Assembly: GCA_002067865.1 (NCBI GenBank)
Contig: MVRC01000018.1
Location: 1-53,540 of the forward strand
Direction of reading: 5' to 3'
From: Methanomassiliicoccales archaeon PtaU1.Bin124
GTDB taxonomy: Archaea > Thermoplasmatota > Thermoplasmata > Methanomassiliicoccales > UBA472
DNA length: 53,540 bases
The position numbers and the translations under genes were made by a program. Under the pieces are notes generated by a model that saw only the letters and a program-made list of their open reading frames with translations, had not been told where the DNA came from and ran no database searches. Shown here piece after piece: positions 1,372 to 17,128 of this stretch. Within the stretch, counting starts at the first letter, position 1. The number at the start of each line of letters is the position of its first letter.

Positions 1372-1458
1372 GCGGAGATGGCCCAGCTCGGTAAGGCGTT
1401 GGATTGCTAATCCAATGTCCGAAAGGACTCGGGGGTTCAAATCCCCCTCTTCGCGCCA
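1372..1458 (+). tRNA. tRNA-Ser(GCU), 87 nt with encoded CCA
   Basis: Manual fold. Acceptor gcggaga pairs with tcttcgc (one G.U). D-stem is 3 bp (gcc/ggc) with GG in the D-loop. Anticodon stem ttgga/tccaa has loop ttGCTaa with U33. Long variable arm gtcc-gaaa-ggac is typical of class II Ser tRNAs. T-arm is ggggg-ttcaaat-ccccc, discriminator g, then cca. Confidence 0.85.
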
Positions 1459-1464
1459 CTTTTC
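1442..1464 (+). repeat. attL: 23-bp direct repeat (tccccctcttcgcgccacttttc) covering the tRNA-Ser 3' end (T-stem 3' strand, acceptor 3' strand, CCA) plus 6 nt downstream
   Basis: Perfect 23/23 identity with 17106-17128. The flanking catat is also shared, with a 2-nt offset. Confidence 0.8.
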
Positions 1465-1732
1465 ATATCCAGTATGTCAGATTTCTCAGTCAATCAGCGG
1501 TTTTTTGTACCGGACCGAGCCAGCAAAACACGTTACCGGACTTTAAGGGAAACATTTCAAGGGGATTAAGAGAAGATACGAGACCGCTACAAGGATTCGG
1601 CGGATTCATATCAAATTAATCCCCATTTATTTTTTCATGCTCGGTCTTGTTGCTATGATTCTCCATTGCGAATGTCCTTAAGCTAATCCTAAAGCTTTGA
1701 ACGACTTACAGCGTCAAAGTTGAGGGAAGAAA

Positions 1733-3253: not shown

Positions 3254-5961
3254 CCACTCGTATCTCACAACAGCAGCTTGAATCCTATCTTTGGGGTGCC
3301 GCGACTCTCTTAAGGGGAACAATCGACGCGGGGGACTATAAACAATTCATCTTCCCGTTACTATTCTACAAACGTCTCTGCGACGTGTATGATGAGGAGA
3401 CTAAAACAGCACTGGTCGAATCTGAAGGCGATAAGGATTTCGCGGCGTACCCAGAGAATCATCGTTTCCAAATCCCAACCGATGCTCATTGGAACGAGAC
3501 TCGGACGGTATCAAAAAATGTTGGTGCTGCCCTGCAAAGCGCCTTGCGCACCATCGAGACCGCCAACCCAGACAAGCTATACGGCATCTTTGGAGATGCT
3601 CAGTGGACAAACAAGGAGCGTCTTCCCGATTCGTTGCTCCGTGACCTTATCGAGCACTTCAGTTCCTTGGAGTTGACCATTGCCAATCTCCCAGAAGATG
3701 AGCTTGGTAATGGCTACGAGTACCTGATTAAAAAGTTCGCGGACGATGCAGGTCACACTGCCGCGGAGTTCTATACAAATCGCACAGTAGTCCACTTGAT
3801 GACCGAGTTGCTCCAGCCGCAGCCAGGCGAGAGCATCTATGACCCAACTTGCGGTTCTGGAGGTATGCTGCTATCCTGTATTGCCCAATTGCGCAGACAA
3901 GGCAAGGAATGGCGCAATGTTCAGCTCTATGGCCAGGAGCGTAACCTAATGACCTCCTCCATAGCTCGGATGAATTGCTTTCTCCACGGCATCGAGGACT
4001 TCCGCATTGAACGGGGAGATACTCTTTCCGAACCAAAGTTCGTACAAAGAGACCATCTGCAGCAATTTGATGTTGTATTGGCGAACCCTCCTTACTCCAT
4101 CAAGCAATGGGACCGCGAGGCGTTCGCATCAGACCCATGGGGACGCAATATCCTGGGCACTCCTCCCCAGGGTAGGGCCGACTACGCTTTCTGGCAGCAT
4201 ATCATTAAAAGTATGAACCCTCAGACAGGAAGGTGTGCCATATTATTCCCACATGGTGTTCTATTTCGGAAGGAAGAAGAGAAGATGAGGCAGAAACTCA
4301 TTGAATCTGACCTTATCGAGTGTGTTATTGGCCTTGGGCCTAACCTCTTTTACAACTCCGCAATGGAAGCGTGTGTTATCATATGTCGTATGACCAAGCC
4401 GAACATGCGTCGTAATAAAATCCTCTTTATCAATGCTGTGAATGAAGTAACTCGCGAACGCGCCCAAAGTTATCTTACTGATAACCACATTGAACGAATT
4501 GTTAATGCATACAAAGTGTTCAAAAATGAACCTGGCTTTTCTAATGTTGCCTCATGGGATGAAATAAGGAATAATTTCAATAATCTGGGGGTCCAACTTT
4601 ACGTAAAAGAGGAGGTTACTAACAACTCGACTTTACACCCAGTGGATATACAATTGAATGAAACATTCTTCTCTTTTCTTAAAAACGCAAAATCAGTACG
4701 GAAATCTCTGTCATGTCTTGCCCCGTCCTTTAGAGATAATGATTACCATTCAATTAACCAAGAGGCCAAAATACATCAACCAGAATGGTTCAAGCGTTCT
4801 GAGTGGAAGACAGTGCGGCTTGGTGATGTGGCTGTTCGAGATACTGAAAGAATCGAGCCTGAAGGAGGGGCGGTCTATAGGTGGGTTGGTGCTGACCATA
4901 TTGATGAAGGGGACATACATGTTCGTCGCTGGGGTTATACAACGGACCCATTGTTTCCACCTACATTTCGTTATACGTTTAAAGCTGGCCATGTCTTAGT
5001 ACATTCACGTAACCCGAATAAAGTAACCATTCCAGATTTTAACGGCATTACGGGAGAAAAATTATTTGTCTTGAAATCGAAAGATAGTTCGTTACTACGT
5101 GAAGATACCCTTGCATTTGTCTTGATGTCTTCATACTTTAAGAAGTGGGCGTCACAATGGTCGTCTGGGTCTGTAAATAGATTCCTAAATTGGTCGGCTC
5201 TTGAAAAGTTGGAGTTCCAACTCCCGCCACTCGACCAGCAACGCCGAATCGCTGAAATACTATGGACTGTGGATGATAATATCGCGAAAGGCCAGGCATT
5301 ATATGATTCTTTAAAATTATTACGCAAGGCAATACTTGATTGTGGGTTCTCACCAGACGTCGAGAAACAGAGTTTGGGGGATATAGTTGATTATGCATCA
5401 GACGGACCATTTGGTTCTAAACTTAAAACAGAACACTATGCGTCCTCTGGTGCTCGAGTGATTAGATTACAGAATATCGGTGATGACTACTTTGATGACA
5501 CTGAAAAAGCATTCATTCCCCTAGATTATTATGAAGAGATGCGTCGTTATGAAGTTCGTGGTGGAGATATTATTGTAGCTGGACTAGGTGATGATACTCA
5601 CCCTGTTGGAAGAGCGGTATTGGTTCCAAATGATATTGGCCCAACCATTAACAAGTCTGATTGTTTTTGTATCCGCTGTACGCCTAGTAAAATCTTAAAC
5701 TCATTCCTTATTTATTATCTTAATAGTAAAGAAGGCAGAGAACAAGTTCTCGCACTGGCCCAAGGTACTACACGTTTACGAATCAATGTAGGAAATATCA
5801 AGACCATACTCGTTTCATTACCACCACTTAGCGAACAAAAACAAAGAGTGGACCAATTGGAAAGAGTTGATATGGCTATTGCAGTGGTTAAACAAACCTT
5901 GGAGGATATTAATCATTTATTATGCGAGTTGATTAATAATATCTTCGAGGAGAGATTATGA
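3250..5961 (+). CDS. HsdM-HsdS fusion: a second N6-adenine MTase module (~aa 1-480) fused to a specificity subunit with two target-recognition domains
   Basis: The N-terminal half is ~60% identical to the upstream HsdM (shared LYGIFGDAQWTNK.RLPDSLLRDLIEHFS, DPTCGSGGML, LANPPYSIKQW). The C-terminal ~400 aa has two TRDs. Each is followed by a conserved HsdS-type motif (LEFQLPPLDQQRRIAEILWTVDD and LVSLPPLSEQKQRVDQLERVD). Confidence 0.8.
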   Translation: MTTRISQQQLESYLWGAATLLRGTIDAGDYKQFIFPLLFYKRLCDVYDEETKTALVESEGDKDFAAYPENHRFQIPTDAHWNETRTVSKNVGAALQSALRTIETANPDKLYGIFGDAQWTNKERLPDSLLRDLIEHFSSLELTIANLPEDELGNGYEYLIKKFADDAGHTAAEFYTNRTVVHLMTELLQPQPGESIYDPTCGSGGMLLSCIAQLRRQGKEWRNVQLYGQERNLMTSSIARMNCFLHGIEDFRIERGDTLSEPKFVQRDHLQQFDVVLANPPYSIKQWDREAFASDPWGRNILGTPPQGRADYAFWQHIIKSMNPQTGRCAILFPHGVLFRKEEEKMRQKLIESDLIECVIGLGPNLFYNSAMEACVIICRMTKPNMRRNKILFINAVNEVTRERAQSYLTDNHIERIVNAYKVFKNEPGFSNVASWDEIRNNFNNLGVQLYVKEEVTNNSTLHPVDIQLNETFFSFLKNAKSVRKSLSCLAPSFRDNDYHSINQEAKIHQPEWFKRSEWKTVRLGDVAVRDTERIEPEGGAVYRWVGADHIDEGDIHVRRWGYTTDPLFPPTFRYTFKAGHVLVHSRNPNKVTIPDFNGITGEKLFVLKSKDSSLLREDTLAFVLMSSYFKKWASQWSSGSVNRFLNWSALEKLEFQLPPLDQQRRIAEILWTVDDNIAKGQALYDSLKLLRKAILDCGFSPDVEKQSLGDIVDYASDGPFGSKLKTEHYASSGARVIRLQNIGDDYFDDTEKAFIPLDYYEEMRRYEVRGGDIIVAGLGDDTHPVGRAVLVPNDIGPTINKSDCFCIRCTPSKILNSFLIYYLNSKEGREQVLALAQGTTRLRINVGNIKTILVSLPPLSEQKQRVDQLERVDMAIAVVKQTLEDINHLLCELINNIFEERL

Positions 5962-8876
5962 CATTCACAGAATCAACTACAGTCGAGCAGATGATTATCG
6001 ACTCTGTAACAAGAATAGGCGAGGCTGATGGATGGATTTACAAATCTCCCTCGGAACTACCACGAAGCTTGACTGACGTGATAGTTGAAAAGTGGTTGCG
6101 CGAAGCTTTAACCCATCTTAATCCCGAAATTAAAGCTCAGCCTGACCGAGCGGACGAAGTCATATACAACCTTCGAGCCATTTTACTCTCGGTGGGTGCC
6201 GATGGTCTTGTTCGAGCAAATGAGAATTTCACCGCCTGGCTTCGCGGTGAGAAGACCATGCCTTTCGGCCCGAACGGTGAGCATGTGCCAGTGCGTCTTA
6301 TTGATACAGACCAACCACTGAATAACCACCTTGTCGTCACCAACCAATGGACCTTCCAAGCAGGACCGTTGGAGAAGCGTTTCGATGTGGTCTTCGTGGT
6401 CAATGGTCTACCACTGATAATCGGTGAGGCGAAGACGCCGACTCGTAGCGCTGTAACTTGGTTCGATGGCGCATTCCAAATCAATCAGATTTACGAACGG
6501 GACGTTCCCGCTATGTTCGTGCCTAACGTCTTTTCCTTCGCTACCGAAGGCCGCCTATACCGATATGGCTCTATCCGTATGCCTATCGATATGTGGGGCC
6601 CCTGGCGTGATGACGATAATAGGGACGAAGGGCAGATGTATCATGTCAAAGCCACACTCAAGAGCATGTTGAGGCCAGAAGTGGCGTTGGACATCATGCA
6701 GAACTTCACCCTCTTTGCCACCGACAAAAAGCATCGGCGCATCAAGATAATCTGCCGTTATCAACAGTTCGACACGGTGAACAAGATTGTTGCGCGGGTC
6801 GTGGCAGGTTATCCGAAGAAAGGTCTGATATGGCATTTCCAGGGTAGTGGTAAGTCACTGTTAATGGTATTCGCCGCACAGAAGCTTAGGCTGCATCCAA
6901 AGCTCGGCAACCCTACGGTAATGATAGTGGTGGACCGAATCGACCTTGATACGCAGATAACGGCAACATTCAACGCTACAGACGTTCCGAACATGGTCGC
7001 CGTAGAAACGAGAGAGGAGCTTCAAACCCTATTAGCTCAGGACGCACGTAAGGTCCTCATCACCACGATTTTTAAGTTCGCCGAGGCAGGCGGGCGATTG
7101 AACGAGCGTTCTAACATCGTCGTGATGGTCGATGAGGCCCACCGGACACAGGAAGGGGACCTAGGCCGCAAAATGCGTGATGCATTGCCGAACGCCTTCC
7201 TCTTCGGTCTGACGGGCACTCCAATCAATCGGGCGGACAGGAACACTTTCTGGGCCTTCGGCGCGGATGAGGATGAGAAAGGTTACATGAGCCGTTACTC
7301 ATTCCAAGAATCCATACGCGACAAAGCGACTCTGCCCTTGCATTTTGAAGCGCCAGAAGTACGGCTCAAGATTGACCGTGCCGCCATAGACGAAGCGTTC
7401 AAGAACCTAACTGACGAGCTTTCTGACCAGGACCGCGATGACCTGGCGAAGAAGGCAGCAAAGATGGCCGTGCTGGTCAAGAACCCGGAACGAGTCCATG
7501 CGGTGGTTAAGCACATGGTCACTCATTTCCAGGAAAAGGTGGAGCCGAACGGGTTCAAGGCACAGGTCGTGGTCTTCGACCGTGAGTGCTGCGTACTTTA
7601 CAAACAAGTCATGGACGAGCTGATTGGTCCGGATGCCAGCGCCATAGTCATGACCACCGCATCTGCGGACCCGCCGGAATGGAGGCAGTACGAGCGTAGC
7701 AAGGATGATGAGGAGAAGTTGCTGGACCGATTCCGGGACCCAGCAGACCCTCTCAAGTTCGTTATCGTCACCAGCAAGCTCCTTACAGGCTTCGATGCCC
7801 CTATCCTTCAGGTAATGTACCTTGATAAGCCGATGAAGGACCACACTCTGCTTCAGGCCATATGCCGTACCAACCGTACATTCGGACCGGAGAAGACCCA
7901 TGGCCTCATCGTCGACTATATCGGCATATTCGATGATGTTGCCCGTTCGCTCGATTTCGACGAGAAATCGATGCATGAGGTTGTATCAAACATCGAGGAG
8001 CTTCGCAAGGCGTTACCGATACAGATGCAGACCTGTCTGGCGTTCTTCCCAGGCGTTGATAGGACCATTACGGGATATGATGGCTTGATGGCTGCACAGC
8101 AGTGCCTACCGAATAATGACGTTCGGGATAAGTTCGCATCTCAGTACACGATACTCGGGACCATATGGGAAGCCCTTTCACCCGATTCATGTCTCACCCC
8201 ATACGAGACAGATTACCGTTGGCTCACGCAGGTCTACGAGTCCGTAAGGCCGGTCAGCGGCAACGGTAAGCTGCTTTGGCATGCCCTGGGCGCTAAGACA
8301 ATCGAACTCATCAATCAGAACGTCCACCTTGACTCGGTGCGCGACGACGTGGAAACACTGGTCCTTGATGCCCAGATGCTCGAAGAGATTCTCAACGACA
8401 AGAACCCCGGTGAAAGGGCAAGGAAAGTTGAGATAATTTTAGTTGCCAGATTGTACAAGCATGTTGGCAATCCAAAGTTCACTGAACTGGGCAAGCGGTT
8501 AGAGCAAATCAAGGAACGTCATGAGAAAGGTCTCCTGACAAGTCTGGAGTTCCTTAAGCAAATACTCGAACTTGCCAAGGATGTGGTCGAAGCGGAGAAG
8601 GAGACCGACCCTGAGGAGGAGAGAGACAGGGCCAAAGAAGCACTTACCGAGCTGTTCAACGAAGCGAAGAACACGAATACACACATCATCGTTGAACGCA
8701 TCGTTGCCGACATCGACGACATTGTAAAGAAGGTGCGGTTCCCTGATTGGCAGCATACTTCTCAAGGCGAGCGGCTAGTGCAAAGAGAACTACGGAAAAC
8801 TCTGCTTAAGTACAAATTGCACACCGACCAGGAGCTGTTCGACCGGGCATATGGTTACATCAAACAATATTATTAA
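5958..8876 (+). CDS. hsdR: Type I restriction enzyme R subunit HsdR (SF2 helicase/endonuclease)
   Basis: 972 aa. Walker A GSGKSLLMV, DEAH box VMVDEAHRTQ, helicase motif III GLTGTP. Start overlaps the M-S fusion stop (ATGA). Completes an operon-like hsdM/hsdMS/hsdR trio. Confidence 0.85.
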   Translation: MTFTESTTVEQMIIDSVTRIGEADGWIYKSPSELPRSLTDVIVEKWLREALTHLNPEIKAQPDRADEVIYNLRAILLSVGADGLVRANENFTAWLRGEKTMPFGPNGEHVPVRLIDTDQPLNNHLVVTNQWTFQAGPLEKRFDVVFVVNGLPLIIGEAKTPTRSAVTWFDGAFQINQIYERDVPAMFVPNVFSFATEGRLYRYGSIRMPIDMWGPWRDDDNRDEGQMYHVKATLKSMLRPEVALDIMQNFTLFATDKKHRRIKIICRYQQFDTVNKIVARVVAGYPKKGLIWHFQGSGKSLLMVFAAQKLRLHPKLGNPTVMIVVDRIDLDTQITATFNATDVPNMVAVETREELQTLLAQDARKVLITTIFKFAEAGGRLNERSNIVVMVDEAHRTQEGDLGRKMRDALPNAFLFGLTGTPINRADRNTFWAFGADEDEKGYMSRYSFQESIRDKATLPLHFEAPEVRLKIDRAAIDEAFKNLTDELSDQDRDDLAKKAAKMAVLVKNPERVHAVVKHMVTHFQEKVEPNGFKAQVVVFDRECCVLYKQVMDELIGPDASAIVMTTASADPPEWRQYERSKDDEEKLLDRFRDPADPLKFVIVTSKLLTGFDAPILQVMYLDKPMKDHTLLQAICRTNRTFGPEKTHGLIVDYIGIFDDVARSLDFDEKSMHEVVSNIEELRKALPIQMQTCLAFFPGVDRTITGYDGLMAAQQCLPNNDVRDKFASQYTILGTIWEALSPDSCLTPYETDYRWLTQVYESVRPVSGNGKLLWHALGAKTIELINQNVHLDSVRDDVETLVLDAQMLEEILNDKNPGERARKVEIILVARLYKHVGNPKFTELGKRLEQIKERHEKGLLTSLEFLKQILELAKDVVEAEKETDPEEERDRAKEALTELFNEAKNTNTHIIVERIVADIDDIVKKVRFPDWQHTSQGERLVQRELRKTLLKYKLHTDQELFDRAYGYIKQYY

Positions 8877-8902
8877 TAAAAATATTTTTAAATTTTATCT
8901 AT
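8877..8902. terminator. AT/T-rich convergent intergenic spacer between hsdR (+) and pAgo (-)
   Basis: aaatatttttaaattttatctatctagatataatatttaaat: oligo-T tracts on both strands, as in archaeal intrinsic terminators. Confidence 0.3.
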
Positions 8903-10456
8903 CTAGATATAATATTTAAATAATGGGCTCGGGTCCCTTACCAAAGGATTCGATACCAGTATCTCGCCTACGGCGTCGGAGAAGCCGATTGTAACCGGTT
9001 CTGAAGAACCAAGCTTACAGGCGTTATAGTTAAGTTTCGTCAGTGATAGAATATCACTTGCCACTTGGTCGATGGATGCATCTCCGTGCATGATGTCGAT
9101 TTTTACGGGTCTTGGTACTTGCCATCCGTCATATGTTTCCAATCGCCACTTGAAACCATTCGCCCATAGATAACCTTCAAACTCGCTCTTTTTCATAAAC
9201 GTACCTCGGGGGATGGGCCATTTCCCTTTCCGGTATATTTTTACCTCATTATCCAAACGAACCCGGATACCGACCAGTTTTACTCCTTTGGGGCAGGCTT
9301 CCCCGAACCCTCCAAACTCATCCCCATTAATCTCTGAGCGGCAATGCAGAAATATTTCCTTGAGAGGTTTTCCTTCAAGCATAGAATACTTAGAAAGTAC
9401 GCCATCCAATAGTTTTCTTGCGGCCTCTCGACTTAAATGATATTCATCGTTCTCAGGAGAATACCAGGGTCCCGTGTCTCCCAGGAAAACAACACCATCC
9501 CCCGAGTTAAGGAACATCTGCGCTGCACAACAAGCAGTTCTCGACTTCTTCTCAGGTTCTGTCTTCTTGTACGTGATTCCAATGTAGCAGACCCCATCAC
9601 GGGCTGAAGCTAGCCGCCAAGGTTTGCCTCCAGCCTTATAGTATAAGGTCGTGGATAGGTTCCAGGCCCTATCGCTTACTGGGGTCAACCCGCGTCTGTG
9701 GTTTAAGTCCTCTTCGACGATTGCTAGGGTTGATTCTCTAATTATCTGGATGGGTACACTTTGATTATTCTGGAACGAGGCTTTTTGATGCATACATTTA
9801 GCCTTTATCTGCCGTCGAAAATCAACGGAGTATCGATATGTGTCCGGGTCCCATTCTCCATCGATGCTTCTTTGCCCCTTGAGGGCTCCAGTTCGGAATC
9901 TTTTCGATGGCTTATCTCCCCAACCATCTACTATGACCGATTCGGACCGACAGTTCTTCCATACCTCATCGGGTACGATGCACAGCAGTACGTCGATAGA
10001 TTCGTCCTGCAATTGGAATTTTGCGATTCCATCGGTGTATTTCTCCACGATGGATGATGTTCGTTCGTATGGATTTCTATTTCTAGAAAGATATATTAAA
10101 TCCTCGGAATTTAAAATATGAGTTTTAGTCGGTCCATTTGCCCATCTAGAATGGAACGCGGCCTCGAAACCTGGAAAGGGCGGCCATAGGTTGTCTTTAG
10201 ACTCGACTTCACGGCATGGTCCAATCATGACGTCCTTAGTCCATCCCGATAGTAGTTCAATTCCATTCTGCGTGCCAATGACACCATAGGATATATTCTG
10301 AGGATGACTTGACAAATCGGTATCGTAAGGACCGAATATTGACAAACCGTCGTGGGGGTCCACCATTGCTTGTCCATACCTGAACTCTAGCAGAGGCTCC
10401 TTAAGTACAACTATCGGACTAGCCACTGGAATCCTCTCCCTCCATGCTATCATCAT
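8903..10456 (-). CDS. Short prokaryotic Argonaute (MID-PIWI, likely catalytically inactive), SPARTA-type effector partner
   Basis: Contains the hallmark Argonaute motif LYYKAGGKPWRL plus GDTGPWYS- and LLCIVPDE-type PIWI segments. It lies immediately downstream of, and co-oriented with, the TIR-APAZ gene. The listed ORF (start 10615) would overlap TIR-APAZ by ~200 nt. In-frame ATGs at 10456/10453 (38-nt overlap, ~517 aa) or 10366 are more plausible; start uncertain. Confidence 0.75.
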   Translation of the reverse strand: MMIAWRERIPVASPIVVLKEPLLEFRYGQAMVDPHDGLSIFGPYDTDLSSHPQNISYGVIGTQNGIELLSGWTKDVMIGPCREVESKDNLWPPFPGFEAAFHSRWANGPTKTHILNSEDLIYLSRNRNPYERTSSIVEKYTDGIAKFQLQDESIDVLLCIVPDEVWKNCRSESVIVDGWGDKPSKRFRTGALKGQRSIDGEWDPDTYRYSVDFRRQIKAKCMHQKASFQNNQSVPIQIIRESTLAIVEEDLNHRRGLTPVSDRAWNLSTTLYYKAGGKPWRLASARDGVCYIGITYKKTEPEKKSRTACCAAQMFLNSGDGVVFLGDTGPWYSPENDEYHLSREAARKLLDGVLSKYSMLEGKPLKEIFLHCRSEINGDEFGGFGEACPKGVKLVGIRVRLDNEVKIYRKGKWPIPRGTFMKKSEFEGYLWANGFKWRLETYDGWQVPRPVKIDIMHGDASIDQVASDILSLTKLNYNACKLGSSEPVTIGFSDAVGEILVSNPLVRDPSPLFKYYI

Positions 10457-11807
10457 CGGTCTCCTCATCGATTTGCTTGCCGTCGGTCTCTTCATCACCT
10501 TGAGGAGCTGCTTTCTCTTCGATGATGTGAACAGGCATGGTGTATTGCTCCAGCCGAGGAGAGATTTGTATTTGTTCCTCGGGTAGGTTACCGATAATAA
10601 TCCGGTCGTCGTCACCGGTCAGTAGTTGGACGATGGCCAGTTGATAGTTCAATAAGTTTGGATTCCACCAATACTTCGTTACTTTCTTGGACCTTGAGTT
10701 CTGACCTCGACCCTGTATTGGCGAACCGTCACCGTTGGTAACGAACGCCGAGAGATTGATGATAACATAATATCCAAGGGTGCGACCCCCTCTGACCCTG
10801 AAAGTCGGACTGAGGCTCCAGAGATAGTTTGTTATTTCTCCAGTCCGCAACCTAATTTTCCTCTGGCCACAAACAGCTCTCCATGTTTTTATTCCGTTGA
10901 AATCGATTAGGTGCACTTTGTTCTCTGCTTTATCGCCAGAGAATGGAAAATAGAACGAGGCTCTCTTTTGCTCGATTCCGACAAGCCCCCTCTCCCAGCA
11001 TTTTAACGATATGCTGTTCTCTAGTAAGTTGGAGATGACGGTGTGTATTGGAATCCCCTTAATGGATGATACATTTACCCATTCAATCTTCTGAGAGCCA
11101 TCCATCGGGCATTCATTCAGAATATCATCTGGAGGAGACATGAATGATAGAACACAATACTTGCTGACCCAGTAGAAGGGCCATTTCTTCAACCAATGTC
11201 TGGTGCCAGAAAAGGTCGTTGGTTGTGAAGTTTCAAACACATTAACATACCGAGGTATTGATTCCACCCTTAGTATGTTCGAGAAAACGGGTTCCATCTC
11301 CTCAACCAAGTAAGTTTTTTCATCTGGCAAATGAGAAAATGAACACATTTCCGTACTTTTTCTTGGAGTTTGGATGGATTCTAACTTCTTTATAAGACCA
11401 CTATATCCCTGAGCCCAACCGTGATTGAATGGAATGAAGGTTATATCACTTGTCATCCAATCGAGCTGAGTGGGTGATAAACCATCAAAATTGATGGGTA
11501 CCAGGAAGTCAGCAACTCGAAGTTCCTCCCCCATTCTCAAAGCTATGGTCCGTTCTTTGCTAGGGAGAGGCTTCACAATTGATTGTTCCGAGAGTATGGC
11601 AATCACACGGAATGCACGTTTGATTGCGACATCAATATCCCGAGGATACGACTCACCACCTAGGAGTTTTATCCTATCGCACCAAACATTAAATCCATCA
11701 GCTATCAGCTTTGAACATAACCAATCGATAAAATAACCCTGTTCCGAAGCATAACTGATGAACAGATGGTCTCTTTGAACCTCGATTCTATGTTCTTCCC
11801 CCGCCAT
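10419..11807 (-). CDS. TIR-APAZ protein: N-terminal TIR domain (putative NADase) fused to an APAZ domain; SPARTA partner of the short pAgo
   Basis: TIR signature DHLFISYASEQGYFIDWLCSKLIADGFNVWCDRIKLLGGESYP..AIKRAFRVIAILSEQS near the N-terminus. The C-terminal ~300 aa is APAZ-like. ATG at 11807 (MAGEEHRIEV...) is preferred over the upstream ATG at 11903, which adds a hydrophobic 32 aa. Confidence 0.75.
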   Translation of the reverse strand: MAGEEHRIEVQRDHLFISYASEQGYFIDWLCSKLIADGFNVWCDRIKLLGGESYPRDIDVAIKRAFRVIAILSEQSIVKPLPSKERTIALRMGEELRVADFLVPINFDGLSPTQLDWMTSDITFIPFNHGWAQGYSGLIKKLESIQTPRKSTEMCSFSHLPDEKTYLVEEMEPVFSNILRVESIPRYVNVFETSQPTTFSGTRHWLKKWPFYWVSKYCVLSFMSPPDDILNECPMDGSQKIEWVNVSSIKGIPIHTVISNLLENSISLKCWERGLVGIEQKRASFYFPFSGDKAENKVHLIDFNGIKTWRAVCGQRKIRLRTGEITNYLWSLSPTFRVRGGRTLGYYVIINLSAFVTNGDGSPIQGRGQNSRSKKVTKYWWNPNLLNYQLAIVQLLTGDDDRIIIGNLPEEQIQISPRLEQYTMPVHIIEEKAAPQGDEETDGKQIDEETDDDSMEGEDSSG

Positions 11808-12129
11808 CGAAGGATGAGGAACCTGCTTACTTATTATGATTGACGCTGTAGAATGCACAATAAGAAGACGAACGTTAAAGATGGTCAGAAATAGGGCCTG
11901 CATCGAATCATTACGTGGTTCGTCTTACCATTCACCCACGTGAGTGAAGAACATCCGCCCGTATGAGTGAAGTGCGACGAAACGATGTCGAACTATGTTC
12001 ATATCATGTTCACAGAAAGGGCCGAAAGCAGCACAGAGGACAGCTCGCATGGAGTATTCACGTAGAACATATACGGACCTTATTGTATCCTGAAAATTGT
12101 ATATATTTCTATAATGAGTATCCAGATAC

Positions 12130-12339
12130 ATGAAGAATAAGTCTCTAGTGATTGATGAAAAATTATATGATAAATTGGTGAAGGAAGTCGGTTATCCCAC
12201 CAAGACCAAGATGAGAATCGATGTTCAGATGGCACTTGCCATGTTCGAGAACGGTTGGTCATATCGACAGATTGGCGAACACTTCGGTGTTTCCGGTATT
12301 ACTGTTAAAAGGCGCATGCGAGGCGCAGGCATCATCTAG
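12130..12339 (+). CDS. Small HTH DNA-binding protein (resolvase/sigma-70 region-4-like HTH)
   Basis: 69 aa. C-terminal GWSYRQIGEHFGVSGITVKRRMRGAG is a classic HTH. Its AT-rich upstream region with TATA-like tracts (12080-12125) is shared divergently with TIR-APAZ. Confidence 0.5.
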   Translation: MKNKSLVIDEKLYDKLVKEVGYPTKTKMRIDVQMALAMFENGWSYRQIGEHFGVSGITVKRRMRGAGII

Positions 12340-13318
12340 TTGCATCTACTTGGTGCAACCTATAGCATGGCAATGCTACCGTCGATATGATTATCGGCTC
12401 ATTCATGCTCATAAGAGGTTTTAGTATCATCGAGACGCGTTCCGATACCATCGAGTCGCTCTCTTGACTGATTTTCTTTATTCCGTTTTTACCTTTGTTG
12501 ACTTTTCTGATTTCTTTGGCTAGCTCCTTATCCTCTATGACCAACCCTAATCCATTGTTATTGTAAAGTTCCTTCATCGGTTTAAGAATGCCCAGTTCAT
12601 CGAGAAAACATTCATTCAATTTATTCGGTCCCAATCGTCGAACCTTGCCCAGGTACGGTCCATCTGATAATCTTACATGGTCTTGGTGCTCTTGGTCAGG
12701 TCCGATAATTTCCTCTTCAATGACCCAGCCCAGTTGTACCAGTTCCTCATCCAATCGTTCATGGAGCTTCATCATGTTGTATACCTTTTCCTGGACCGGC
12801 ATCTTTGAAACCTTGACGTTAATGATGTCTTCCCTTGCTCTCCTCTGGATTTCATTGATGGCAGCAATAGCCCATTTTCCGCTGAGTTCCCTTGTGCACT
12901 TCACTACATCGGCCCTGAACGTATCCGTATAGGATATGCCCCAGGAGACTGGGTAGATAATTTTGACGTTCTCATCGTCATCGGCTTTTCCGTTATCTAC
13001 CTCATTGGCCGTTAATATCGCCCTGCTTAAGTCAGTGGATAAGGGGAGCCGTTCGATTTTATCGAGGTAAAAATTCTTTCCTCGCTTCTTGACGAGCTTC
13101 CTTTCGACCAATACATTCATGATTCGGTGAAGACGCGCTTTATCGACAGTTCTGTTCTTGCCAGTACGCATTTCTCCTTGGAGTGGTATCCCAATTAATA
13201 ACAACTCACTTTCAGTAATACCTTCTCCAAAGATATTTTTTGAAGAGATAATAGCCAGTACTTTAGAGTATGGCTTCCTCAACATTAATTCCTTACGGGT
13301 CAACTTATGCCTGGACAT
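12332..13318 (-). CDS. Hypothetical protein with an N-terminal winged-helix domain (island cargo; possible regulator or replication/partition factor)
   Basis: 328 aa clean ORF. The wHTH-like segment is TGKNRTVDKARLHRIMNVLVERKLVKKRGKNFYL. No other motif recognised. Confidence 0.45.
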   Translation of the reverse strand: MSRHKLTRKELMLRKPYSKVLAIISSKNIFGEGITESELLLIGIPLQGEMRTGKNRTVDKARLHRIMNVLVERKLVKKRGKNFYLDKIERLPLSTDLSRAILTANEVDNGKADDDENVKIIYPVSWGISYTDTFRADVVKCTRELSGKWAIAAINEIQRRAREDIINVKVSKMPVQEKVYNMMKLHERLDEELVQLGWVIEEEIIGPDQEHQDHVRLSDGPYLGKVRRLGPNKLNECFLDELGILKPMKELYNNNGLGLVIEDKELAKEIRKVNKGKNGIKKISQESDSMVSERVSMILKPLMSMNEPIIISTVALPCYRLHQVDATR

Positions 13319-13386
13319 ACAATTTGTATATGGTTGTCAATAATAATAAATTTCACTATCTAGTCGAAATCGACAATCTCCAATCC

Positions 13387-13967: not shown

Positions 13968-15128
13968 TTGGATTTGACTTGGTTTTTAGGGGTGCCCTCC
14001 GTGCGTAAGGAGGTCAAGCACACCGCCCATAGCATCGAGGTCTACCATCTAGCGATAGACGGCCGGGCACATGATGCAGGTTATACAATTCCTGAGATAG
14101 CCAAGTTAACTGGTTTGAATAAAGAAACGGTAAGGCTCATACTTAAGCAGCATGAGATGGACGGTTATGTTATTAGGAATCCTAGAACTAAAAGTCCGAT
14201 ATTCTTCAAAAGGGGTCCTTCGGCAAACGTTATTGACGAGGTTGTTACCGATTCCAAGACCAAATGTGATGACGATGAGACCGTCGATTCCAATGCAAGC
14301 GAGCGGTGTCAAAACCAAAAAAGGTCAACCCGTGTTAAGCCGGTCATAACCGAGGTGCATACTCTACGGACCCATCTGAACGGTCGGGTGCATTTCGAGG
14401 TCTATAAGATTGGAGACATGCAAACGATAAGGGAGCCGGACGGGAAGGGTGGTTACATCAACATTGCCCTGTTCCCCAAGTCACCCTATCGGACTCACCA
14501 CAACACTCAGTCCTGGAAGGCAACGATACTCACTGATGGTGTGCCGGTTAAAATCGATTTATTCGAGTCTAAAAGCCGTACATTATTAATTGTCTTCCCC
14601 CCGGAACAGGAATTGACGCAGGACCAACTGGCCGCCGCTAAGGACCTCTTGAAGAATAGAGCAGAGCAGGCGGTCGCCATCCTCTCGAAGTACGGTGGTT
14701 GGCTCCTTGGAGAGCCAGTTCTAGTCGGTACGGTAGAGTATGCCGACCAGGACTGCCTGTTGGCGAAGTATCTGCCAGATATGCCGAAGACACAAGGTTC
14801 ACACCTATGGAGGGACAATTCACACGGCTGCTCCGAGGATGAAACAAACAAACCTGCAATCGGAGAATGGCTTGCCAACTTCCTGAGAAAGGCCGACAAG
14901 GTAGAGTCTAAGCTGGACGAGCACGACAACAGACTATCATCAGCTGAAGAATCTCTGATACTTGTAGCCATAATTCTTGACAAACAAATTCAACTTAAGC
15001 AACTGGAGATAGAAGCTGCTAAAGCAGCGTCTGGTTGCGGCCAAACCAAGACACAAAACGAAGAATCATACACCTCCGGGATGGCAAAGAAGGACATCAA
15101 GGAGAAGCACGAGGTGATGTATCGATGA
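13968..15128 (+). CDS. Hypothetical protein with an N-terminal HTH (island cargo)
   Basis: 386 aa ORF. Its N-terminal segment YTIPEIAKLTGLNKETVRLILKQHEMDGYVIRNP is HTH-like and the rest is unrecognised. Start uncertain. Confidence 0.4.
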   Translation: MDLTWFLGVPSVRKEVKHTAHSIEVYHLAIDGRAHDAGYTIPEIAKLTGLNKETVRLILKQHEMDGYVIRNPRTKSPIFFKRGPSANVIDEVVTDSKTKCDDDETVDSNASERCQNQKRSTRVKPVITEVHTLRTHLNGRVHFEVYKIGDMQTIREPDGKGGYINIALFPKSPYRTHHNTQSWKATILTDGVPVKIDLFESKSRTLLIVFPPEQELTQDQLAAAKDLLKNRAEQAVAILSKYGGWLLGEPVLVGTVEYADQDCLLAKYLPDMPKTQGSHLWRDNSHGCSEDETNKPAIGEWLANFLRKADKVESKLDEHDNRLSSAEESLILVAIILDKQIQLKQLEIEAAKAASGCGQTKTQNEESYTSGMAKKDIKEKHEVMYR

Positions 15129-15294
15129 GTCTCCAGCAAACGGATGCCAAGATGCCTTTGCATGTCGAGATGTCACCTATGTCTCAGATGCTGTGCCCTC
15201 TAGCCAGTTTCATTTCCTGCTCATTATGCCCCTTCGTCCACCTTTGCCATGGCCGAGGTGGATGTCCGACAAACGGAAGAAATGGGGTGTGCCC

Positions 15295-15891
15295 ATGCGG
15301 GTAGCGCTTTACCCCCGAGTATCTAGGTCTGACAAGGACCAGAATCCCGAGAATCAATTGATTAAGCTCAGGGAATTTGTCATCAGGAAGGGATGGACCA
15401 TCTACGGCGAATATGTCGATTTCGCCAGCGGGGCAGCTCCCTCCCGACCTGCCTTCGACAGGATGATGGCCGAGGCGAGAGGACGGCATTTCGACATAAT
15501 CCTTGTCGTCAGGATAGATAGGATGGCCCGTTCGGTCAATCAATTGCTGAATATATTGGAGAAATTGAATAATTACGGGGTCAGCCTGATATGCACTGAC
15601 CAGGACATCGACACCAACAGCCCGACCGGCAAGTTACTTTTCACCATCCTTGGCGCAGTTGCCGAGCTAGAATTGGAATTAATCCGGGAGAGAACGAAGG
15701 ATGGATTGGCCAGGGCGAAAGCCCAGGGAAAGCGCTTGGGAAGGCCGCCGAACCCGGCCTTGACCGAGCAAATCACTCGTATGAGAGAAGAAGGGCTGAG
15801 CTACAGAGAAATCGGCTTACAGGTCGGATTAAGCCATCAAGCGGTCAAGAAGCGCCTCGTACGGGCGGGGTACAAAAAGGGGTCGAGTTAG
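15295..15891 (+). CDS. Small serine recombinase (resolvase/invertase family)
   Basis: Catalytic motif MRVALYPRVSRSDKDQNPENQ (YxRVS..Q). C-terminal HTH LSYREIGLQVGLSHQAVKKRL. ATG at 15295 is preferred over the upstream start at 15193. Confidence 0.8.
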   Translation: MRVALYPRVSRSDKDQNPENQLIKLREFVIRKGWTIYGEYVDFASGAAPSRPAFDRMMAEARGRHFDIILVVRIDRMARSVNQLLNILEKLNNYGVSLICTDQDIDTNSPTGKLLFTILGAVAELELELIRERTKDGLARAKAQGKRLGRPPNPALTEQITRMREEGLSYREIGLQVGLSHQAVKKRLVRAGYKKGSS

Positions 15892-16060
15892 GGAGATGAG
15901 GCCAGCACGAAGGGGGGCAACATCCCAAGGCGGGGCTACAATAACGGTCGATAAGTTTACATCCCCTTTCGATGATTCTTCGGCCGAGGGCGCCGACAAT
16001 GTATCGAAAAGAAGGCGTCCTAGTGCGCACGGTGTCGGGCGTAAGAGGGGGAGGCGTTCA

Positions 16061-17098
16061 ATGGGGCGCTATCCTTTCCTGACCTATGCGATGAAGTATC
16101 TGGAGAAGAGGAAGTCATTGGCGCCATCAAGCAAAGAGGACTACGAACGTAAGGCCCGGTTCCTTAATCGGACATTCGTAGACCTCCAAAGGGTCGGCAC
16201 GGTCAGCACATCAAATCCCAAGGGTATGACCAAGGCCGACATCTTCGCCTACATCCAGTGGATGAGGGCAGAGGAGCTTGAGGGGTCATATATGGCGAAG
16301 AATCTGGGATTCCTTAAGCAGATATGCGCCTACGCTGGAAACAATGTATTTGCACAGATAGCGGCCGATGGCGAGGAATTGCCTAAGAGGACTCCAAAGG
16401 ACCTAAACTCGTTGAGCGAGGATGACCTCAAGCTCATCTTTGAGAAGGTTGAGGAGCTTAAGGGCTGGGAAGGGGAAGTAATCAGATTCCTGATGTGGAT
16501 GTACCCCTTTACTGGTCTAAGGGCTTCAGAGCTAAGACTGGCTCAAGTGGAAGACATCAACCTCCAAGAATGGTCTATCTTCGTCAGGCATCCCAAGGGT
16601 GAGATAAGGTACGGGAAGAAGAGAAAGGCCCCCATACTGCCTCCGGCGAGGAAAGCGGTCATACGCTTCCTCAAAGCGAGGGAGCAACGGCTCAAGTCTC
16701 TAGGTATCAGTAAGTGCGTGGCACTGATACCGGCGAGGCATAGAGACGGAACGGCGGGCTTCTACTGCTCGAACGCCTTTAGGAACATGAAGAAGGAAAT
16801 AATGGAAAAAGTGAACATGGACCTTGAGGACAGAAGATTGGACTTCCACATCAAGACCATGAGAGACACCTTCATCCAGATGTGCATCGATAAGAACCCG
16901 GATAAGACCCCGGCAGTTTCGATGGTATCGGGTCACTCAACGACCAAGACCACCGAGACCACATACGGGCGCATTAGGAACAATCGGGCGCTGTCGGACG
17001 TGCAAAAACTATGGGGTGACGATATATCGGGGCCAGCACCCGAAAATGTCAAAAACCCCTTGATTGAAAAGAAGTTTGACATATCTGGATACGCGTAG
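16061..17098 (+). CDS. int: Tyrosine recombinase / phage-type integrase
   Basis: C-terminal catalytic region has R (MRDTFIQMC), H-x-x (SGHSTTKTTETTYGRIR) and a Tyr nucleophile. The N-terminal SAM-like core-binding domain is present. The gene ends 8 nt before attR. An alternative upstream start is at 15896. Confidence 0.8.
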   Translation: MGRYPFLTYAMKYLEKRKSLAPSSKEDYERKARFLNRTFVDLQRVGTVSTSNPKGMTKADIFAYIQWMRAEELEGSYMAKNLGFLKQICAYAGNNVFAQIAADGEELPKRTPKDLNSLSEDDLKLIFEKVEELKGWEGEVIRFLMWMYPFTGLRASELRLAQVEDINLQEWSIFVRHPKGEIRYGKKRKAPILPPARKAVIRFLKAREQRLKSLGISKCVALIPARHRDGTAGFYCSNAFRNMKKEIMEKVNMDLEDRRLDFHIKTMRDTFIQMCIDKNPDKTPAVSMVSGHSTTKTTETTYGRIRNNRALSDVQKLWGDDISGPAPENVKNPLIEKKFDISGYA

Positions 17099-17105
17099 GG
17101 GCATG

Positions 17106-17128
17106 TCCCCCTCTTCGCGCCACTTTTC
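17106..17128 (+). repeat. attR: second copy of the 23-bp tRNA-Ser 3'-end repeat
   Basis: tccccctcttcgcgccacttttc is identical to 1442-1464. No complete tRNA structure lies upstream of it. Confidence 0.8.

What the first reader, a model, noticed from the sequence alone, without database searches (positions are those of the whole stretch)
8903..11903. SPARTA-like TIR-APAZ + short Argonaute pair on an archaeal integrated element
A TIR-domain protein fused to an APAZ domain sits immediately upstream of, and overlaps, a ~515-aa MID-PIWI Argonaute. This is the gene order and architecture of SPARTA, the short-pAgo/TIR-APAZ NAD+-depleting abortive-infection system. The TIR signature is DHLFISYASEQ...W...E. 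The Argonaute carries the diagnostic LYYKAGGKPW motif. Here the pair sits in an archaeon, inside a tRNA-integrated element, next to a Type I R-M system. Known SPARTA systems are overwhelmingly bacterial. An archaeal, mobile-element-borne copy is worth examining for divergence in TIR catalytic-Glu placement, the pAgo MID 5'-end binding pocket, and the operon overlap.
Basis: partly seen in the sequence, partly recalled or inferred. Interest (0 to 1): 0.8.

Follow-up and report, generated by a model that had tools for sequence, protein, structure and literature searches.

The report
Archaeal SPARTA defence operon on integrated element
A methanogen-related archaeon carries, on a 15.7-kb element inserted in a tRNA gene, an intact two-gene SPARTA system (an Argonaute sensor paired with an NAD-destroying TIR enzyme), a known kind of suicide defence so far studied only in bacteria, so this is an ordinary but archaeal and slightly divergent member.

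Summary
Two overlapping minus-strand genes at 8903-11903 encode a TIR-APAZ protein and a MID-PIWI short Argonaute. They match PADLOC models at E 4.5e-55 and 1.2e-164. The Argonaute aligns end to end with solved SPARTA Argonautes (E ~1e-104). The AlphaFold model of TIR-APAZ matches solved SPARTA TIR-APAZ chains.

SPARTA hallmarks are present:
- the TIR catalytic Glu;
- a 35-residue acidic C-terminal tail;
- the 5'-phosphate pocket Lys, Asn and C-terminal Ile;
- a broken DEDX tetrad;
- an 8-nt gene overlap, the commonest junction among relatives.

The window is the whole contig of MAG Methanomassiliicoccales archaeon PtaU1.Bin124. GenBank lists both genes as hypothetical proteins. The pair lies on a 15.7-kb element bounded by an exact 23-nt repeat of the tRNA-Ser 3' end. 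The element also carries a Type I R-M system, a resolvase and a tyrosine integrase.

Archaeal SPARTA is not unique. Twelve of the 80 best GTDB loci are archaeal, and eight group with the window (83% bootstrap). The whole subclade has Arg where every solved SPARTA has His207, and it shares only 36-39% Argonaute identity with them.

Verdict: new member of a known kind, of modest interest.

The parts
1372..1458 (+). tRNA-Ser (GCT), the integration target. Its 3' end (1442-1464) is the left attachment repeat.
   Evidence: ARAGORN and Rfam tRNA.
1442..1464 (+). attL: the exact 23-nt direct repeat TCCCCCTCTTCGCGCCACTTTTC.
   Evidence: the repeat finder family D4. Exact identity with 17106-17128 was verified.
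1733..3253 (+). Type I R-M methyltransferase HsdM.
   Evidence: Pfam N6_Mtase 6e-102 and HsdM_N 3e-24.
3250..5961 (+). A second HsdM paralogue fused to an HsdS specificity module (903 aa).
   Evidence: Pfam N6_Mtase 2e-89, HsdM_N and Methylase_S 4e-25. A paralogous 175-nt repeat at 73% identity links it to the first HsdM.
5958..8876 (+). Type I restriction subunit HsdR, convergent with the Argonaute gene.
   Evidence: Pfam SWI2_SNF2 2e-70, HSDR_N 9e-27 and T1R_D3-like.
8877..8902 (.). A 26-nt AT-rich spacer with T-runs on both strands between the convergent stop codons. It is a likely bidirectional archaeal oligo-T terminator (inferred).
   Evidence: Sequence read directly. The terminator function is inferred, not tested.
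8903..10426 (-). Short prokaryotic Argonaute (MID-PIWI), 507 aa from GTG 10426. GenBank OPY30845.1 starts at ATG 10453 (516 aa). Key residues: Arg204 (9815-9817), Lys208 (9803-9805), Arg363 at the third DEDX position (9338-9340), the LYYKAGGKPW motif (9617-9646) and the C-terminal Ile507.
10419..11807 (-). TIR-APAZ effector, 462 aa from ATG 11807. GenBank OPY30846.1 starts at 11903 (494 aa). The TIR domain spans about residues 12-140 and APAZ about residues 165-425. The catalytic Glu85 lies at 11553-11555. The acidic C-terminal tail lies at 10422-10526 (35 aa, 43% Asp/Glu).
11831..11838 (-). TATA-like CATAATAA centred about 27 nt upstream of ATG 11807. It fits an archaeal promoter for a leaderless or short-leader operon transcript (inferred).
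   Evidence: Sequence read directly. The geometry argument rests on general knowledge of archaeal promoters and was not tested.
12130..12339 (+). Small helix-turn-helix protein (69 aa) of the element backbone.
   Evidence: Weak PHROGs hits to DNA-binding and HTH proteins, best E 7e-5.
12332..13318 (-). Element ORF of unknown function (328 aa). It is not conserved next to SPARTA elsewhere.
   Evidence: No Pfam or PHROGs hit. No tblastn hit in the 80 related loci.
13968..15128 (+). Element ORF (386 aa) with a faint DnaD-like loader similarity. It may be a replication or regulatory protein.
   Evidence: PHROGs phrog_186, E 9.5e-4. No Pfam hit.
15193..15891 (+). Serine recombinase (resolvase/invertase).
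   Evidence: Pfam Resolvase 6e-42 and PHROGs DNA invertase 2e-51.
15896..17098 (+). Tyrosine integrase at the right end of the element.
   Evidence: Pfam Phage_integrase 7e-8 and PHROGs integrase 2e-25.
17106..17128 (+). attR: the second copy of the 23-nt tRNA-Ser 3'-end repeat. The element spans 1442-17128, which is 15,687 nt.
   Evidence: G+C is 47.7% inside the element against 56.6% in the rest of the contig.

Best explanation
This is an intact SPARTA system (short pAgo clade S2A plus TIR-APAZ) carried as cargo, with a Type I R-M system, on a 15.7-kb integrative element in the tRNA-Ser gene of a Methanomassiliicoccales archaeon.

Proposed mechanism, by homology with MapSPARTA, CrtSPARTA and BabSPARTA:
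1. The two genes are co-transcribed and translationally coupled through the 8-nt overlap.
2. The two proteins form a 1:1 heterodimer.
3. [quoted passage not shown]
4. The MID pocket (Arg204, Lys208, Asn468, the Ile507 carboxylate and Mg2+) anchors the 5'-phosphate of a small guide, most probably RNA drawn from the transcriptome.
5. Pairing of the guide with complementary ssDNA from an invading, highly transcribed or multicopy element displaces the tail and the PIWI sensor loop.
6. The complexes then dimerise and tetramerise.
7. The assembled TIR domains, using Glu85, hydrolyse NAD(P)+. The cell stops growing or dies before the invader spreads.

The PIWI domain only binds and cannot cleave.

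Shown here: the gene anatomy, the domain and fold identity, conservation of the key residues, the operon junction, the archaeal host, the element boundaries, and the phylogenetic neighbourhood. Inferred, not shown: heterodimer formation, guide type, the trigger, oligomerisation, NADase chemistry, and the abortive-infection outcome in an archaeon.
For: Domain and fold identity:
- PADLOC gives full-length hits: Aga_TIR-PNTD1-PNTD2 at 4.5e-55 and pAgo_I at 1.2e-164.
- The Argonaute aligns over residues 5-507 with the 507-aa Crt, Map and Bab SPARTA Argonautes at E 3e-104 to 6e-99. SPARHA, SPARDA and SPARSA Argonautes score much worse, with E-values of 1e-46 or weaker.
- The AlphaFold model of TIR-APAZ has pLDDT 83. 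Its top 32 Foldseek hits in the PDB are all SPARTA TIR-APAZ chains, E 6e-25 to 1e-17, aligned over about 440-460 columns. APAZ-only chains give TM 0.65-0.70.

Key residues:
- Map Glu77 aligns with Glu85 in a KERT motif. This Glu is invariant in the 41 closest homologues.
- The tail is 35 residues with 43% Asp/Glu. This fits the autoinhibitory tail described for S2A systems (PMC10899771).
- Crt Lys211, Asn466, Asn468, Thr228, Arg225, Arg243 and Ile507 are all conserved (residue roles from PMC11156904).
- The DEDX tetrad is broken. TtAgo D546 aligns with Arg363 in two independent alignments. No acidic residue lies in the GITYKK strand at the D478 position.

Operon and family context:
- 75 of the 80 related loci have TIR-APAZ directly upstream of the Argonaute.
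- The commonest junction among them is an 8-nt overlap, in 16 loci.
Against: - No experiment exists for any member of this subclade, and none of the solved SPARTAs is closer than 39% (Argonaute) or about 20% (TIR-APAZ) identity.
- The first MID-pocket residue is Arg, not the His207 that stacks on guide base 1 in CrtSPARTA.
- Several backbone contacts differ from Crt: R72 to Trp81, N439 to Arg, R481 to Gly and R364 to Glu. Guide preference could therefore differ.
- The alignment to a long pAgo used for the DEDX mapping is weak (hhalign probability 24%, E 8e-4).
- Pfam and NCBIfam give no Argonaute hit.
- Expression in the host is unknown, and the promoter and terminator assignments are inferred from sequence only.
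Confidence: 0.82

Rival explanations
1. The architecture is the same but the biochemistry differs. In this reading the RK-type subclade, including the archaeal branch, uses a different guide (DNA, 5'-OH RNA, or a different 5' base). Alternatively its TIR makes a signalling nucleotide or cleaves another substrate instead of simply depleting NAD+.
For: - His207 is replaced by Arg204 and Arg72 by Trp81 in 80 of 80 relatives, and several other nucleic-acid contacts differ.
- Identity to characterised systems is only 36-39%.
- CrtSPARTA itself can be activated by DNA guides through a different binding mode (PMC11851103).
- In 24 of the 67 aligned locus TIR-APAZ sequences, all bacterial, the Glu position is Gln or Arg, so effector chemistry may vary within this clade.
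Against: - The window protein and all aligned archaeal relatives keep the KERT Glu.
- Lys208, Asn468 and the C-terminal Ile of the 5'-phosphate/Mg2+ pocket are invariant.
- The RK pocket is a known 5'-phosphate-binding variant typical of short pAgos (PMC6299218).
- No separate downstream effector gene is conserved next to the operon.
Confidence: 0.12
2. The system mainly serves the mobile element rather than the host. SPARTA and the R-M system would then exclude competing plasmids or viruses and stabilise the integrated element (inter-element competition or addiction). This concerns the biological role and is compatible with the SPARTA mechanism.
For: - Both systems lie inside the att-bounded, low-G+C element, together with an integrase and a resolvase.
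- TIR-APAZ homologues occur on 20 bacterial plasmids, 16 of them conjugative.
- Distant relatives occur on 7 IMG/VR viral contigs.
- SPARTA is known to respond to multicopy plasmids (PMC9097488).
Against: - No data were obtained on excision, copy number or competitors.
- Defence genes carried on mobile islands benefit host and element alike, so the two roles cannot be separated by sequence.
Confidence: 0.3
3. The pair is a decaying or silent remnant with no current function.
For: - It was recently acquired: G+C is 45.5% against 56.6% in the host.
- Expression has not been shown.
Against: - Both ORFs are full length, with no frameshift or internal stop.
- All family-invariant residues checked are retained.
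- The coupling overlap and a Shine-Dalgarno-like run are intact.
- By contrast, some relatives (L011, L014, L028, L032, L033) show split or truncated TIR-APAZ matches.
Confidence: 0.04
4. It is a long, catalytically active Argonaute nuclease system that directly cleaves invader nucleic acid.
For: None beyond general PIWI homology. CbAgo and CpAgo score only E 3e-5 to 6e-4.
Against: - The protein is 507 aa with no N or PAZ region, and it is colinear with 507-aa short pAgos.
- The third DEDX position is Arg363 and the first lies in GITYKK.
- The N-L1-L2 equivalent is supplied in trans by APAZ.
Confidence: 0.01

Closest known systems
SPARTA: short pAgo clade S2A with TIR-APAZ. Characterised examples are MapSPARTA (Maribacter polysiphoniae), CrtSPARTA (Crenotalea thermophila) and BabSPARTA (Bacillales bacterium).
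   Same: - Two-gene operon with TIR-APAZ upstream and overlapping the Argonaute gene.
- A 507-aa MID-PIWI Argonaute that is colinear with the characterised ones.
- TIR with the catalytic Glu.
- APAZ fold.
- Acidic autoinhibitory C-terminal tail.
- Conserved Lys, Asn and C-terminal Ile of the 5'-phosphate/Mg2+ pocket.
- No DEDX tetrad.

   Different: - The host is an archaeon.
- Argonaute identity is only 36-39%, and TIR-APAZ identity about 18-21%.
- The MID pocket is the RK type (Arg204 in place of His207).
- Trp81 replaces Arg72.
- Insert57 is shorter, and an 8-residue QKASFQNN insertion follows the pocket helix.
- Biochemistry is untested.

The uncharacterised RK-type SPARTA subclade in genome databases. 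The closest members are Methanomassiliicoccus sp. UBA386 (L001), Micrarchaeota, Methanosarcinales, Thermoplasmatales and ANME-1 MAGs, plus Methanocella conradii proteins.
   Same: - Same operon, the same invariant residues (Arg204, Lys208, Trp81, the KERT Glu) and overlapping junctions.
- The window pairs with L001 at 100% bootstrap.
- An all-archaeal group of eight has 83% bootstrap in the concatenated tree.

   Different: - Argonaute identity is 75% and TIR-APAZ identity 57% to L001, and at most 59% to the rest.
- Flanking genes are not syntenic.
- Of the 11 archaeal loci scanned for tRNA genes, only L002 has one (tRNA-Ala); no att repeats or integrases were looked for there.
Other short pAgo systems: SPARSA (Sir2-APAZ), SPARDA (DREN-APAZ), SPARHA (HNH-APAZ) and the archaeal SiAgo/Aga1/Aga2 system of Sulfolobus islandicus.
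   Same: A catalytically dead MID-PIWI Argonaute partnered with an APAZ protein. Guide-directed sensing triggers a toxic effector (abortive infection).
   Different: - The effector domain here is TIR.
- Argonaute similarity to these systems is much lower: E-values of 1e-46 or weaker, against 1e-104 for SPARTA.
- APAZ matches are weaker too, about 1e-12 to 1e-9.
- SiAgo uses a membrane effector (PMC11788926).
tRNA-targeting archaeal integrative elements that carry defence cargo.
   Same: A tyrosine integrase at one end, direct repeats that duplicate the tRNA 3' end, lower G+C than the host, and cargo made up of defence systems.
   Different: - No viral structural genes and no clear conjugation genes were detected.
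- The backbone ORFs are orphans.
- The element was not classified into a named family.

Membership tests
SPARTA (short pAgo S2A + TIR-APAZ) | The Argonaute consists of MID and PIWI only, with no N or PAZ domain. | tested here: met
   The 507-aa protein aligns over residues 5-507 with residues 4-507 of the 507-aa Crt, Map and Bab Argonautes. PADLOC pAgo_I covers profile positions 4-493 of 493.
SPARTA (short pAgo S2A + TIR-APAZ) | The PIWI domain lacks the catalytic DEDX tetrad. | tested here: met
   - TtAgo D546 aligns with Arg363 in both hhalign and an independent hmmsearch.
- The D478 position falls in GITYKK, which has no acidic residue.
- E512 aligns with Tyr329.
- Only the fourth position (Asp484) may be retained, and that rests on extending the alignment.
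- The remote alignment is weak (probability 24%), but the two methods agree.
SPARTA (short pAgo S2A + TIR-APAZ) | The MID 5'-phosphate/Mg2+ pocket is conserved (Crt His207, Lys211, Asn468, C-terminal Ile507). | tested here: met
   Lys208, Asn468 and Ile507 are conserved. His207 is replaced by Arg204 in the window and in 80 of 80 relatives. This is the RK-type 5'-phosphate motif described for short pAgos (PMC6299218), so the feature is met with a variant first residue.
SPARTA (short pAgo S2A + TIR-APAZ) | The partner protein has an N-terminal TIR domain fused to an APAZ domain. | tested here: met
   - Pfam TIR_2 at 2e-16.
- PADLOC TIR-PNTD1-PNTD2 at 4.5e-55, full length.
- The AlphaFold model matches SPARTA TIR-APAZ chains at E 1e-25 to 1e-17, and APAZ-only chains at TM 0.65-0.70.
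SPARTA (short pAgo S2A + TIR-APAZ) | The TIR catalytic glutamate (Map/Crt Glu77) is present. | tested here: met
   Glu85 (numbered from Met33; Glu117 in the 494-aa ORF) aligns with Map Glu77. It is invariant in the 41 closest homologues.
SPARTA (short pAgo S2A + TIR-APAZ) | The operon has TIR-APAZ immediately upstream of the Argonaute gene. | tested here: met
   The genes are adjacent on the same strand with an 8-nt overlap (35 nt as annotated). The same order is seen in 75 of 80 relatives, where the modal overlap is 8 nt.
SPARTA (short pAgo S2A + TIR-APAZ) | TIR-APAZ carries an acidic C-terminal autoinhibitory tail. | tested here: met
   The tail is 35 residues with 43% Asp/Glu. Across relatives the median is 34 residues and 37.5%. 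The range reported for S2 clades is 16-46 residues and 21-45% (PMC10899771).
SPARTA (short pAgo S2A + TIR-APAZ) | The Argonaute is closer to S2A Argonautes than to those of other short pAgo clades. | tested here: met
   Solved SPARTA Argonautes score E 1e-104 to 1e-99. SPARHA scores 9e-47, and the SPARDA and SPARSA Argonautes 1e-33 to 1e-21. No full tree across all four clades was built.
SPARTA (short pAgo S2A + TIR-APAZ) | Heterodimer formation, guide-RNA/target-ssDNA-triggered tetramerisation, NAD(P)+ hydrolysis and cell death. | not testable with these tools
   This needs protein biochemistry and in vivo assays. It is inferred only from homology.
Long catalytically active pAgo | N-PAZ-MID-PIWI architecture with an intact DEDX tetrad. 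| tested here: not met
   There is no N or PAZ region, and Arg sits at the third tetrad position.
SPARSA / SPARDA / SPARHA | The APAZ partner carries a Sir2, DREN nuclease or HNH effector domain. | tested here: not met
   The effector domain is TIR. The Sir2-type PADLOC model matches only the Argonaute part, and weakly.
tRNA-integrated archaeal mobile element | An integrase together with direct repeats that duplicate the 3' end of an intact tRNA gene, and atypical base composition. | tested here: met
   - The tyrosine integrase lies at 15896-17098.
- An exact 23-nt repeat lies at 1442-1464 and 17106-17128.
- tRNA-Ser is intact.
- G+C is 47.7% inside the element against 56.6% outside.
- Excision was not tested.

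The most novel reading that the evidence does not exclude
The window belongs to an archaea-specific lineage of SPARTA. The lineage spans Thermoplasmatota, Methanosarcinales, ANME-1 and Micrarchaeota, and it may spread on integrative elements like this one. It sits inside a large, never-characterised RK-type subclade whose altered guide-binding residues (Arg204 for His207, Trp81 for Arg72, and others) would give it a guide or trigger preference different from the bacterial HK-type systems. If so, this would be the first route to studying NAD+-depletion abortive infection in methanogen-related archaea, and possibly a SPARTA with new programmability for diagnostics.
Probability: 0.25. Interest if true: 0.55.

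Novelty: new member of a known kind. Interest (0 to 1): 0.35.

Why it matters
- SPARTA has been dissected only in three bacterial systems, and the papers I could read present it as bacterial.
- This locus, and the archaeal branch it belongs to, show that the same NAD+-depleting Argonaute defence circulates among archaea. That includes methanogen relatives and DPANN symbionts. In this locus it is carried on a mobile element together with a restriction-modification system.
- The locus offers a compact, intact candidate for testing whether TIR-mediated abortive infection works in archaeal cells.
- It also offers a test of whether the RK-type guide pocket changes guide selection.
- It is not a new mechanism. 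Both genes already sit in GenBank as hypothetical proteins, so the immediate gain is better annotation and an experimental lead.

Tried and rejected
- **Pfam and NCBIfam on the Argonaute.** No hit. I rejected this as evidence against a PIWI domain, because none of the 120 homologues carries a Pfam domain either, and the PADLOC and PDB comparisons are decisive.
- **Exact-sequence look-ups of HsdR, EF-1alpha and P0121 to find the source.** Nothing was found. The source came instead from the TIR-APAZ homology search and the cluster look-up.
- **Synteny with the closest relative, L001.** Only the operon itself matches, at 66% nucleotide identity, and the flanks do not. No shared element can be claimed.
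- **Search for other conserved neighbours of SPARTA.** The element ORFs have no hits in the 80 loci. Type I R-M genes recur in about 9 loci, which fits general defence-island clustering rather than a fixed module.
- **Viral contigs.** Only 7 distant loci were found, at 34-38% identity.
- **Plasmids.** Haloarchaeal plasmids carry short pAgo relatives but no TIR-APAZ, so they are not archaeal SPARTA.
- **Ryazansky 2018 supplementary tables.** A search for Methanocella, Methanomassiliicoccales and Thermoplasmata found none. It found only a Methanosarcina short pAgo with a solo APAZ.
- **Argonaute-only NJ tree.** The archaeal clade got just 41% bootstrap. The concatenated tree was needed to reach 83%.
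- **The 32-residue hydrophobic N-terminal extension of the annotated 494-aa TIR-APAZ.** I considered it as a possible membrane anchor and rejected it as a likely annotation artefact. Homologues lack it, and the TATA-like box lies downstream of that ATG.

Full report
**1. The observation**

The minus strand between 8903 and 11903 holds two long ORFs: 10419..11903 (494 aa) and 8903..10615 (570 aa as the maximal ORF).

The upstream ORF matches:
- Pfam TIR_2 at 2e-16;
- the PADLOC model Aga_TIR-PNTD1-PNTD2 over its whole length at 4.5e-55.

The downstream ORF matches:
- PADLOC pAgo_I at 1.2e-164;
- the 507-aa Argonautes of the solved CrtSPARTA, MapSPARTA and BabSPARTA complexes, colinear from residue 4 to the C-terminus, at E 3e-104 to 6e-99.

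None of this can be chance.

Pfam and NCBIfam give no Argonaute hit. That is a property of those libraries. None of the 120 nearest homologues has a precomputed Pfam domain either.

**2. Gene starts and the overlap**

Homology to solved TIR-APAZ proteins begins at residue 44 of the 494-aa ORF. The nearest homologue, P0122, is 462 aa and starts at the position equivalent to Met33. A TATA-like CATAATAA sits about 27 nt upstream of that ATG at 11807. I therefore take 11807 as the start, giving 462 aa.

Homology to solved Argonautes begins at residue 68 of the 570-aa ORF. A GTG at 10426 is preceded by GGAGGGAGAGG and yields a 507-aa protein. The 87%-identical P0001 is 506 aa with the equivalent N-terminus.

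This start overlaps the TIR-APAZ stop codon by 8 nt (GTGGCTAG). Among the 80 related loci, an 8-nt overlap is the commonest junction (16 loci), followed by 4 and 11 nt. GenBank annotates 494 aa (OPY30846.1) and 516 aa (OPY30845.1, ATG 10453), both as 'hypothetical protein'.

**3. Host and element**

The window is the complete 53,540-nt contig of the MAG Methanomassiliicoccales archaeon PtaU1.Bin124.

The contig itself proves an archaeal host. It carries:
- the 5' half of an archaeal 16S rRNA at 1-771;
- archaeosine tRNA-guanine transglycosylase;
- aEF-2, aEF-1alpha and the PolD large subunit.

tRNA-Ser lies at 1372-1458. Its last bases plus downstream sequence, 23 nt in all (TCCCCCTCTTCGCGCCACTTTTC, 1442-1464), recur exactly at 17106-17128, just after a tyrosine integrase gene.

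The 15.7 kb between the repeats has 47.7% G+C against 56.6% for the rest of the contig. It encodes:
- hsdM, an hsdM-hsdS fusion and hsdR;
- the SPARTA pair, convergent with hsdR across a 26-nt AT-rich spacer;
- a few orphan or HTH ORFs;
- a serine recombinase and the integrase.

No virion or conjugation genes were detected. This is an integrative element whose recognisable cargo is defence.

**4. Functional residues of TIR-APAZ**

- The catalytic Glu77 of MapTIR-APAZ aligns with Glu85 (KERT motif). This Glu is invariant in the 41 closest homologues.
- The AlphaFold model has mean pLDDT 83. Foldseek returns SPARTA TIR-APAZ chains as its 32 best PDB matches (E 6e-25 to 1e-17).
- Global TM is only about 0.4-0.5, because the TIR and APAZ lobes are oriented differently in a model of the isolated chain. 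APAZ-only chains superpose at TM 0.65-0.70.
- The last 35 residues are 43% Asp/Glu. This matches the acidic tail that blocks the nucleic-acid channel in apo BabSPARTA (PMC10899771).

**5. Functional residues of the Argonaute**

Crt Lys211, Thr228, Arg225, Arg243, Asn466, Asn468 and the C-terminal Ile507 are conserved. These residues hold the guide 5'-phosphate, Mg2+ and backbone (PMC11156904).

His207 is replaced by Arg204, and Arg72 by Trp81, in the window and in all 80 relatives. Ryazansky et al. describe this RK-type pocket as characteristic of short pAgos (PMC6299218). Every solved SPARTA has the HK type.

I mapped the DEDX tetrad against TtAgo, fetched from pTT27. Its D478, E512, D546 and D660 were verified.
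- D546 aligns with Arg363 in both hhalign and an independent profile search.
- The D478 position falls in GITYKK.
- E512 falls on Tyr329, in the loop that acts as the 'sensor loop' in SPARTA.
- Only the fourth position may still be Asp (Asp484), and that rests on extending the alignment.

The tetrad is therefore not intact.

**6. Relatives**

The Argonaute has 3379 database homologues. The best 120 are 53-87% identical. Named ones include Micrarchaeota, Methanocella conradii, Nanoarchaeia and ANME-1, as well as Chloroflexota.

In one-genome-per-species GTDB data, at least 570 loci encode relatives. Of the 80 best, 12 are archaeal, and the top five are all archaeal. TIR-APAZ lies directly upstream in 75 of the 80.

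In NJ trees:
- All 81 sequences separate from Crt, Map and Bab (100% bootstrap), to which the window is 36-39% identical.
- The window pairs with Methanomassiliicoccus sp. UBA386 (100%).
- In the concatenated TIR-APAZ plus Argonaute tree, eight archaeal systems form an exclusive group with 83% bootstrap. They come from Methanomassiliicoccales, Thermoplasmatales, Methanosarcinales, ANME-1, Micrarchaeota and an unclassified archaeon. The Argonaute-only tree gave 41%.
- Bathyarchaeia form a separate trio.

So this copy sits on an archaeal branch that has moved between archaeal phyla. It is not a fresh import from bacteria. These are quick distance trees on the 80 best loci only, so the deeper topology is unresolved.

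**7. Mechanism**

By homology, the most likely working is the SPARTA cycle:
1. a coupled heterodimer forms;
2. the acidic tail autoinhibits it;
3. the MID pocket loads a 5'-phosphate guide, probably RNA;
4. the guide recognises complementary invader ssDNA;
5. the tail and the sensor loop are displaced;
6. the complexes tetramerise;
7. Glu85 drives NAD(P)+ hydrolysis, and growth stops.

The anatomy and the residues are shown here. Every biochemical step is inferred. The changes in the pocket and backbone contacts leave room for a different guide preference. I rate that at about 0.12 as a rival.

Because the system rides an integrative element together with R-M, it may serve element competition as much as host defence. 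Bacterial homologues occur on conjugative plasmids.

**8. Comparison and novelty**

All sequence-testable defining features of SPARTA are met. The one variation is RK in place of HK. Membership of the long pAgo, SPARSA, SPARDA and SPARHA families fails on architecture.

In the literature I could search:
- SPARTA distribution is described for bacterial phyla only (Koopal 2022).
- No paper found treats archaeal SPARTA.
- Ryazansky's tables do not list these taxa.

The sequences are nevertheless public, and the family is large. I therefore class this as a new member of a known kind: an archaeal, mobile-element-borne, RK-type SPARTA. It is useful as an annotation correction and an experimental lead, but it is not a new mechanism.

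Noticed in passing
L014:1-11800 (Thermoplasmata MAG CAYYXK010000015.1): Here the SPARTA pair (about 4678-7503) sits inside a Type I R-M operon, between hsdM (3-1280) and hsdS/hsdR (7569-11794), all on one strand. About 9 of the 80 related loci have Type I R-M genes within 6 kb. The TIR-APAZ match in L014 is split into two pieces, which may indicate a frameshift.
   Followed up: partly
Loci L015, L018, L020-L026, L031, L039, L044-L049, L053-L055, L062, L066, L070, L071 (TIR-APAZ genes): In 24 of the 67 aligned locus TIR-APAZ sequences, all bacterial, the position of the catalytic Glu (KERT) is Gln (MRQR, 14 loci) or Arg (ARR, 10 loci). The surrounding alignment is clean. These SPARTA-like systems may have a shifted catalytic residue or a non-NADase TIR.
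   Followed up: partly
window 1733-5961: Two tandem HsdM paralogues are present. The second is fused to an HsdS specificity module (903 aa). The two share a 175-nt stretch at 73% identity (1993-2167 and 3486-3660). This is an unusual Type I R-M subunit layout.
   Followed up: no
window 10427-10453 and 11808-11903: The GenBank start codons for both genes look too far upstream (516 against 507 aa, and 494 against 462 aa). The extra 32 residues on TIR-APAZ are hydrophobic and could be misread as a membrane anchor.
   Followed up: yes
window 1-771: The 5' half of an archaeal 16S rRNA gene (minus strand) is cut by the contig end, about 600 nt from the tRNA-Ser that serves as the integration site.
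   Followed up: partly
window 9760-9790 (Argonaute residues about 213-222): An 8-residue insertion (QKASFQNN) follows the MID pocket helix. It is shared with the 87%-identical P0001 but is absent from the consensus of the other close homologues and from Crt, Map and Bab. Conversely, the insert57 region is shorter than in the solved SPARTAs.
   Followed up: no
plasmid collection: Short pAgo relatives occur on Haloarcula (4) and Halorarius (3) plasmids, but no TIR-APAZ homologue was found on any archaeal plasmid. These are presumably other short pAgo system types.
   Followed up: partly
window 17491-19569 and 39857-40954: Two SPFH/Band 7 family proteins are present. The first (692 aa) lies immediately outside attR.
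   Followed up: no
window 33266-35830: tRNA-Ala (TGC) is followed by a 783-aa fibronectin-type-III protein in a local dip of G+C (49% at 33-34 kb, against about 57% in the flanks). This could be another small insertion.
   Followed up: no
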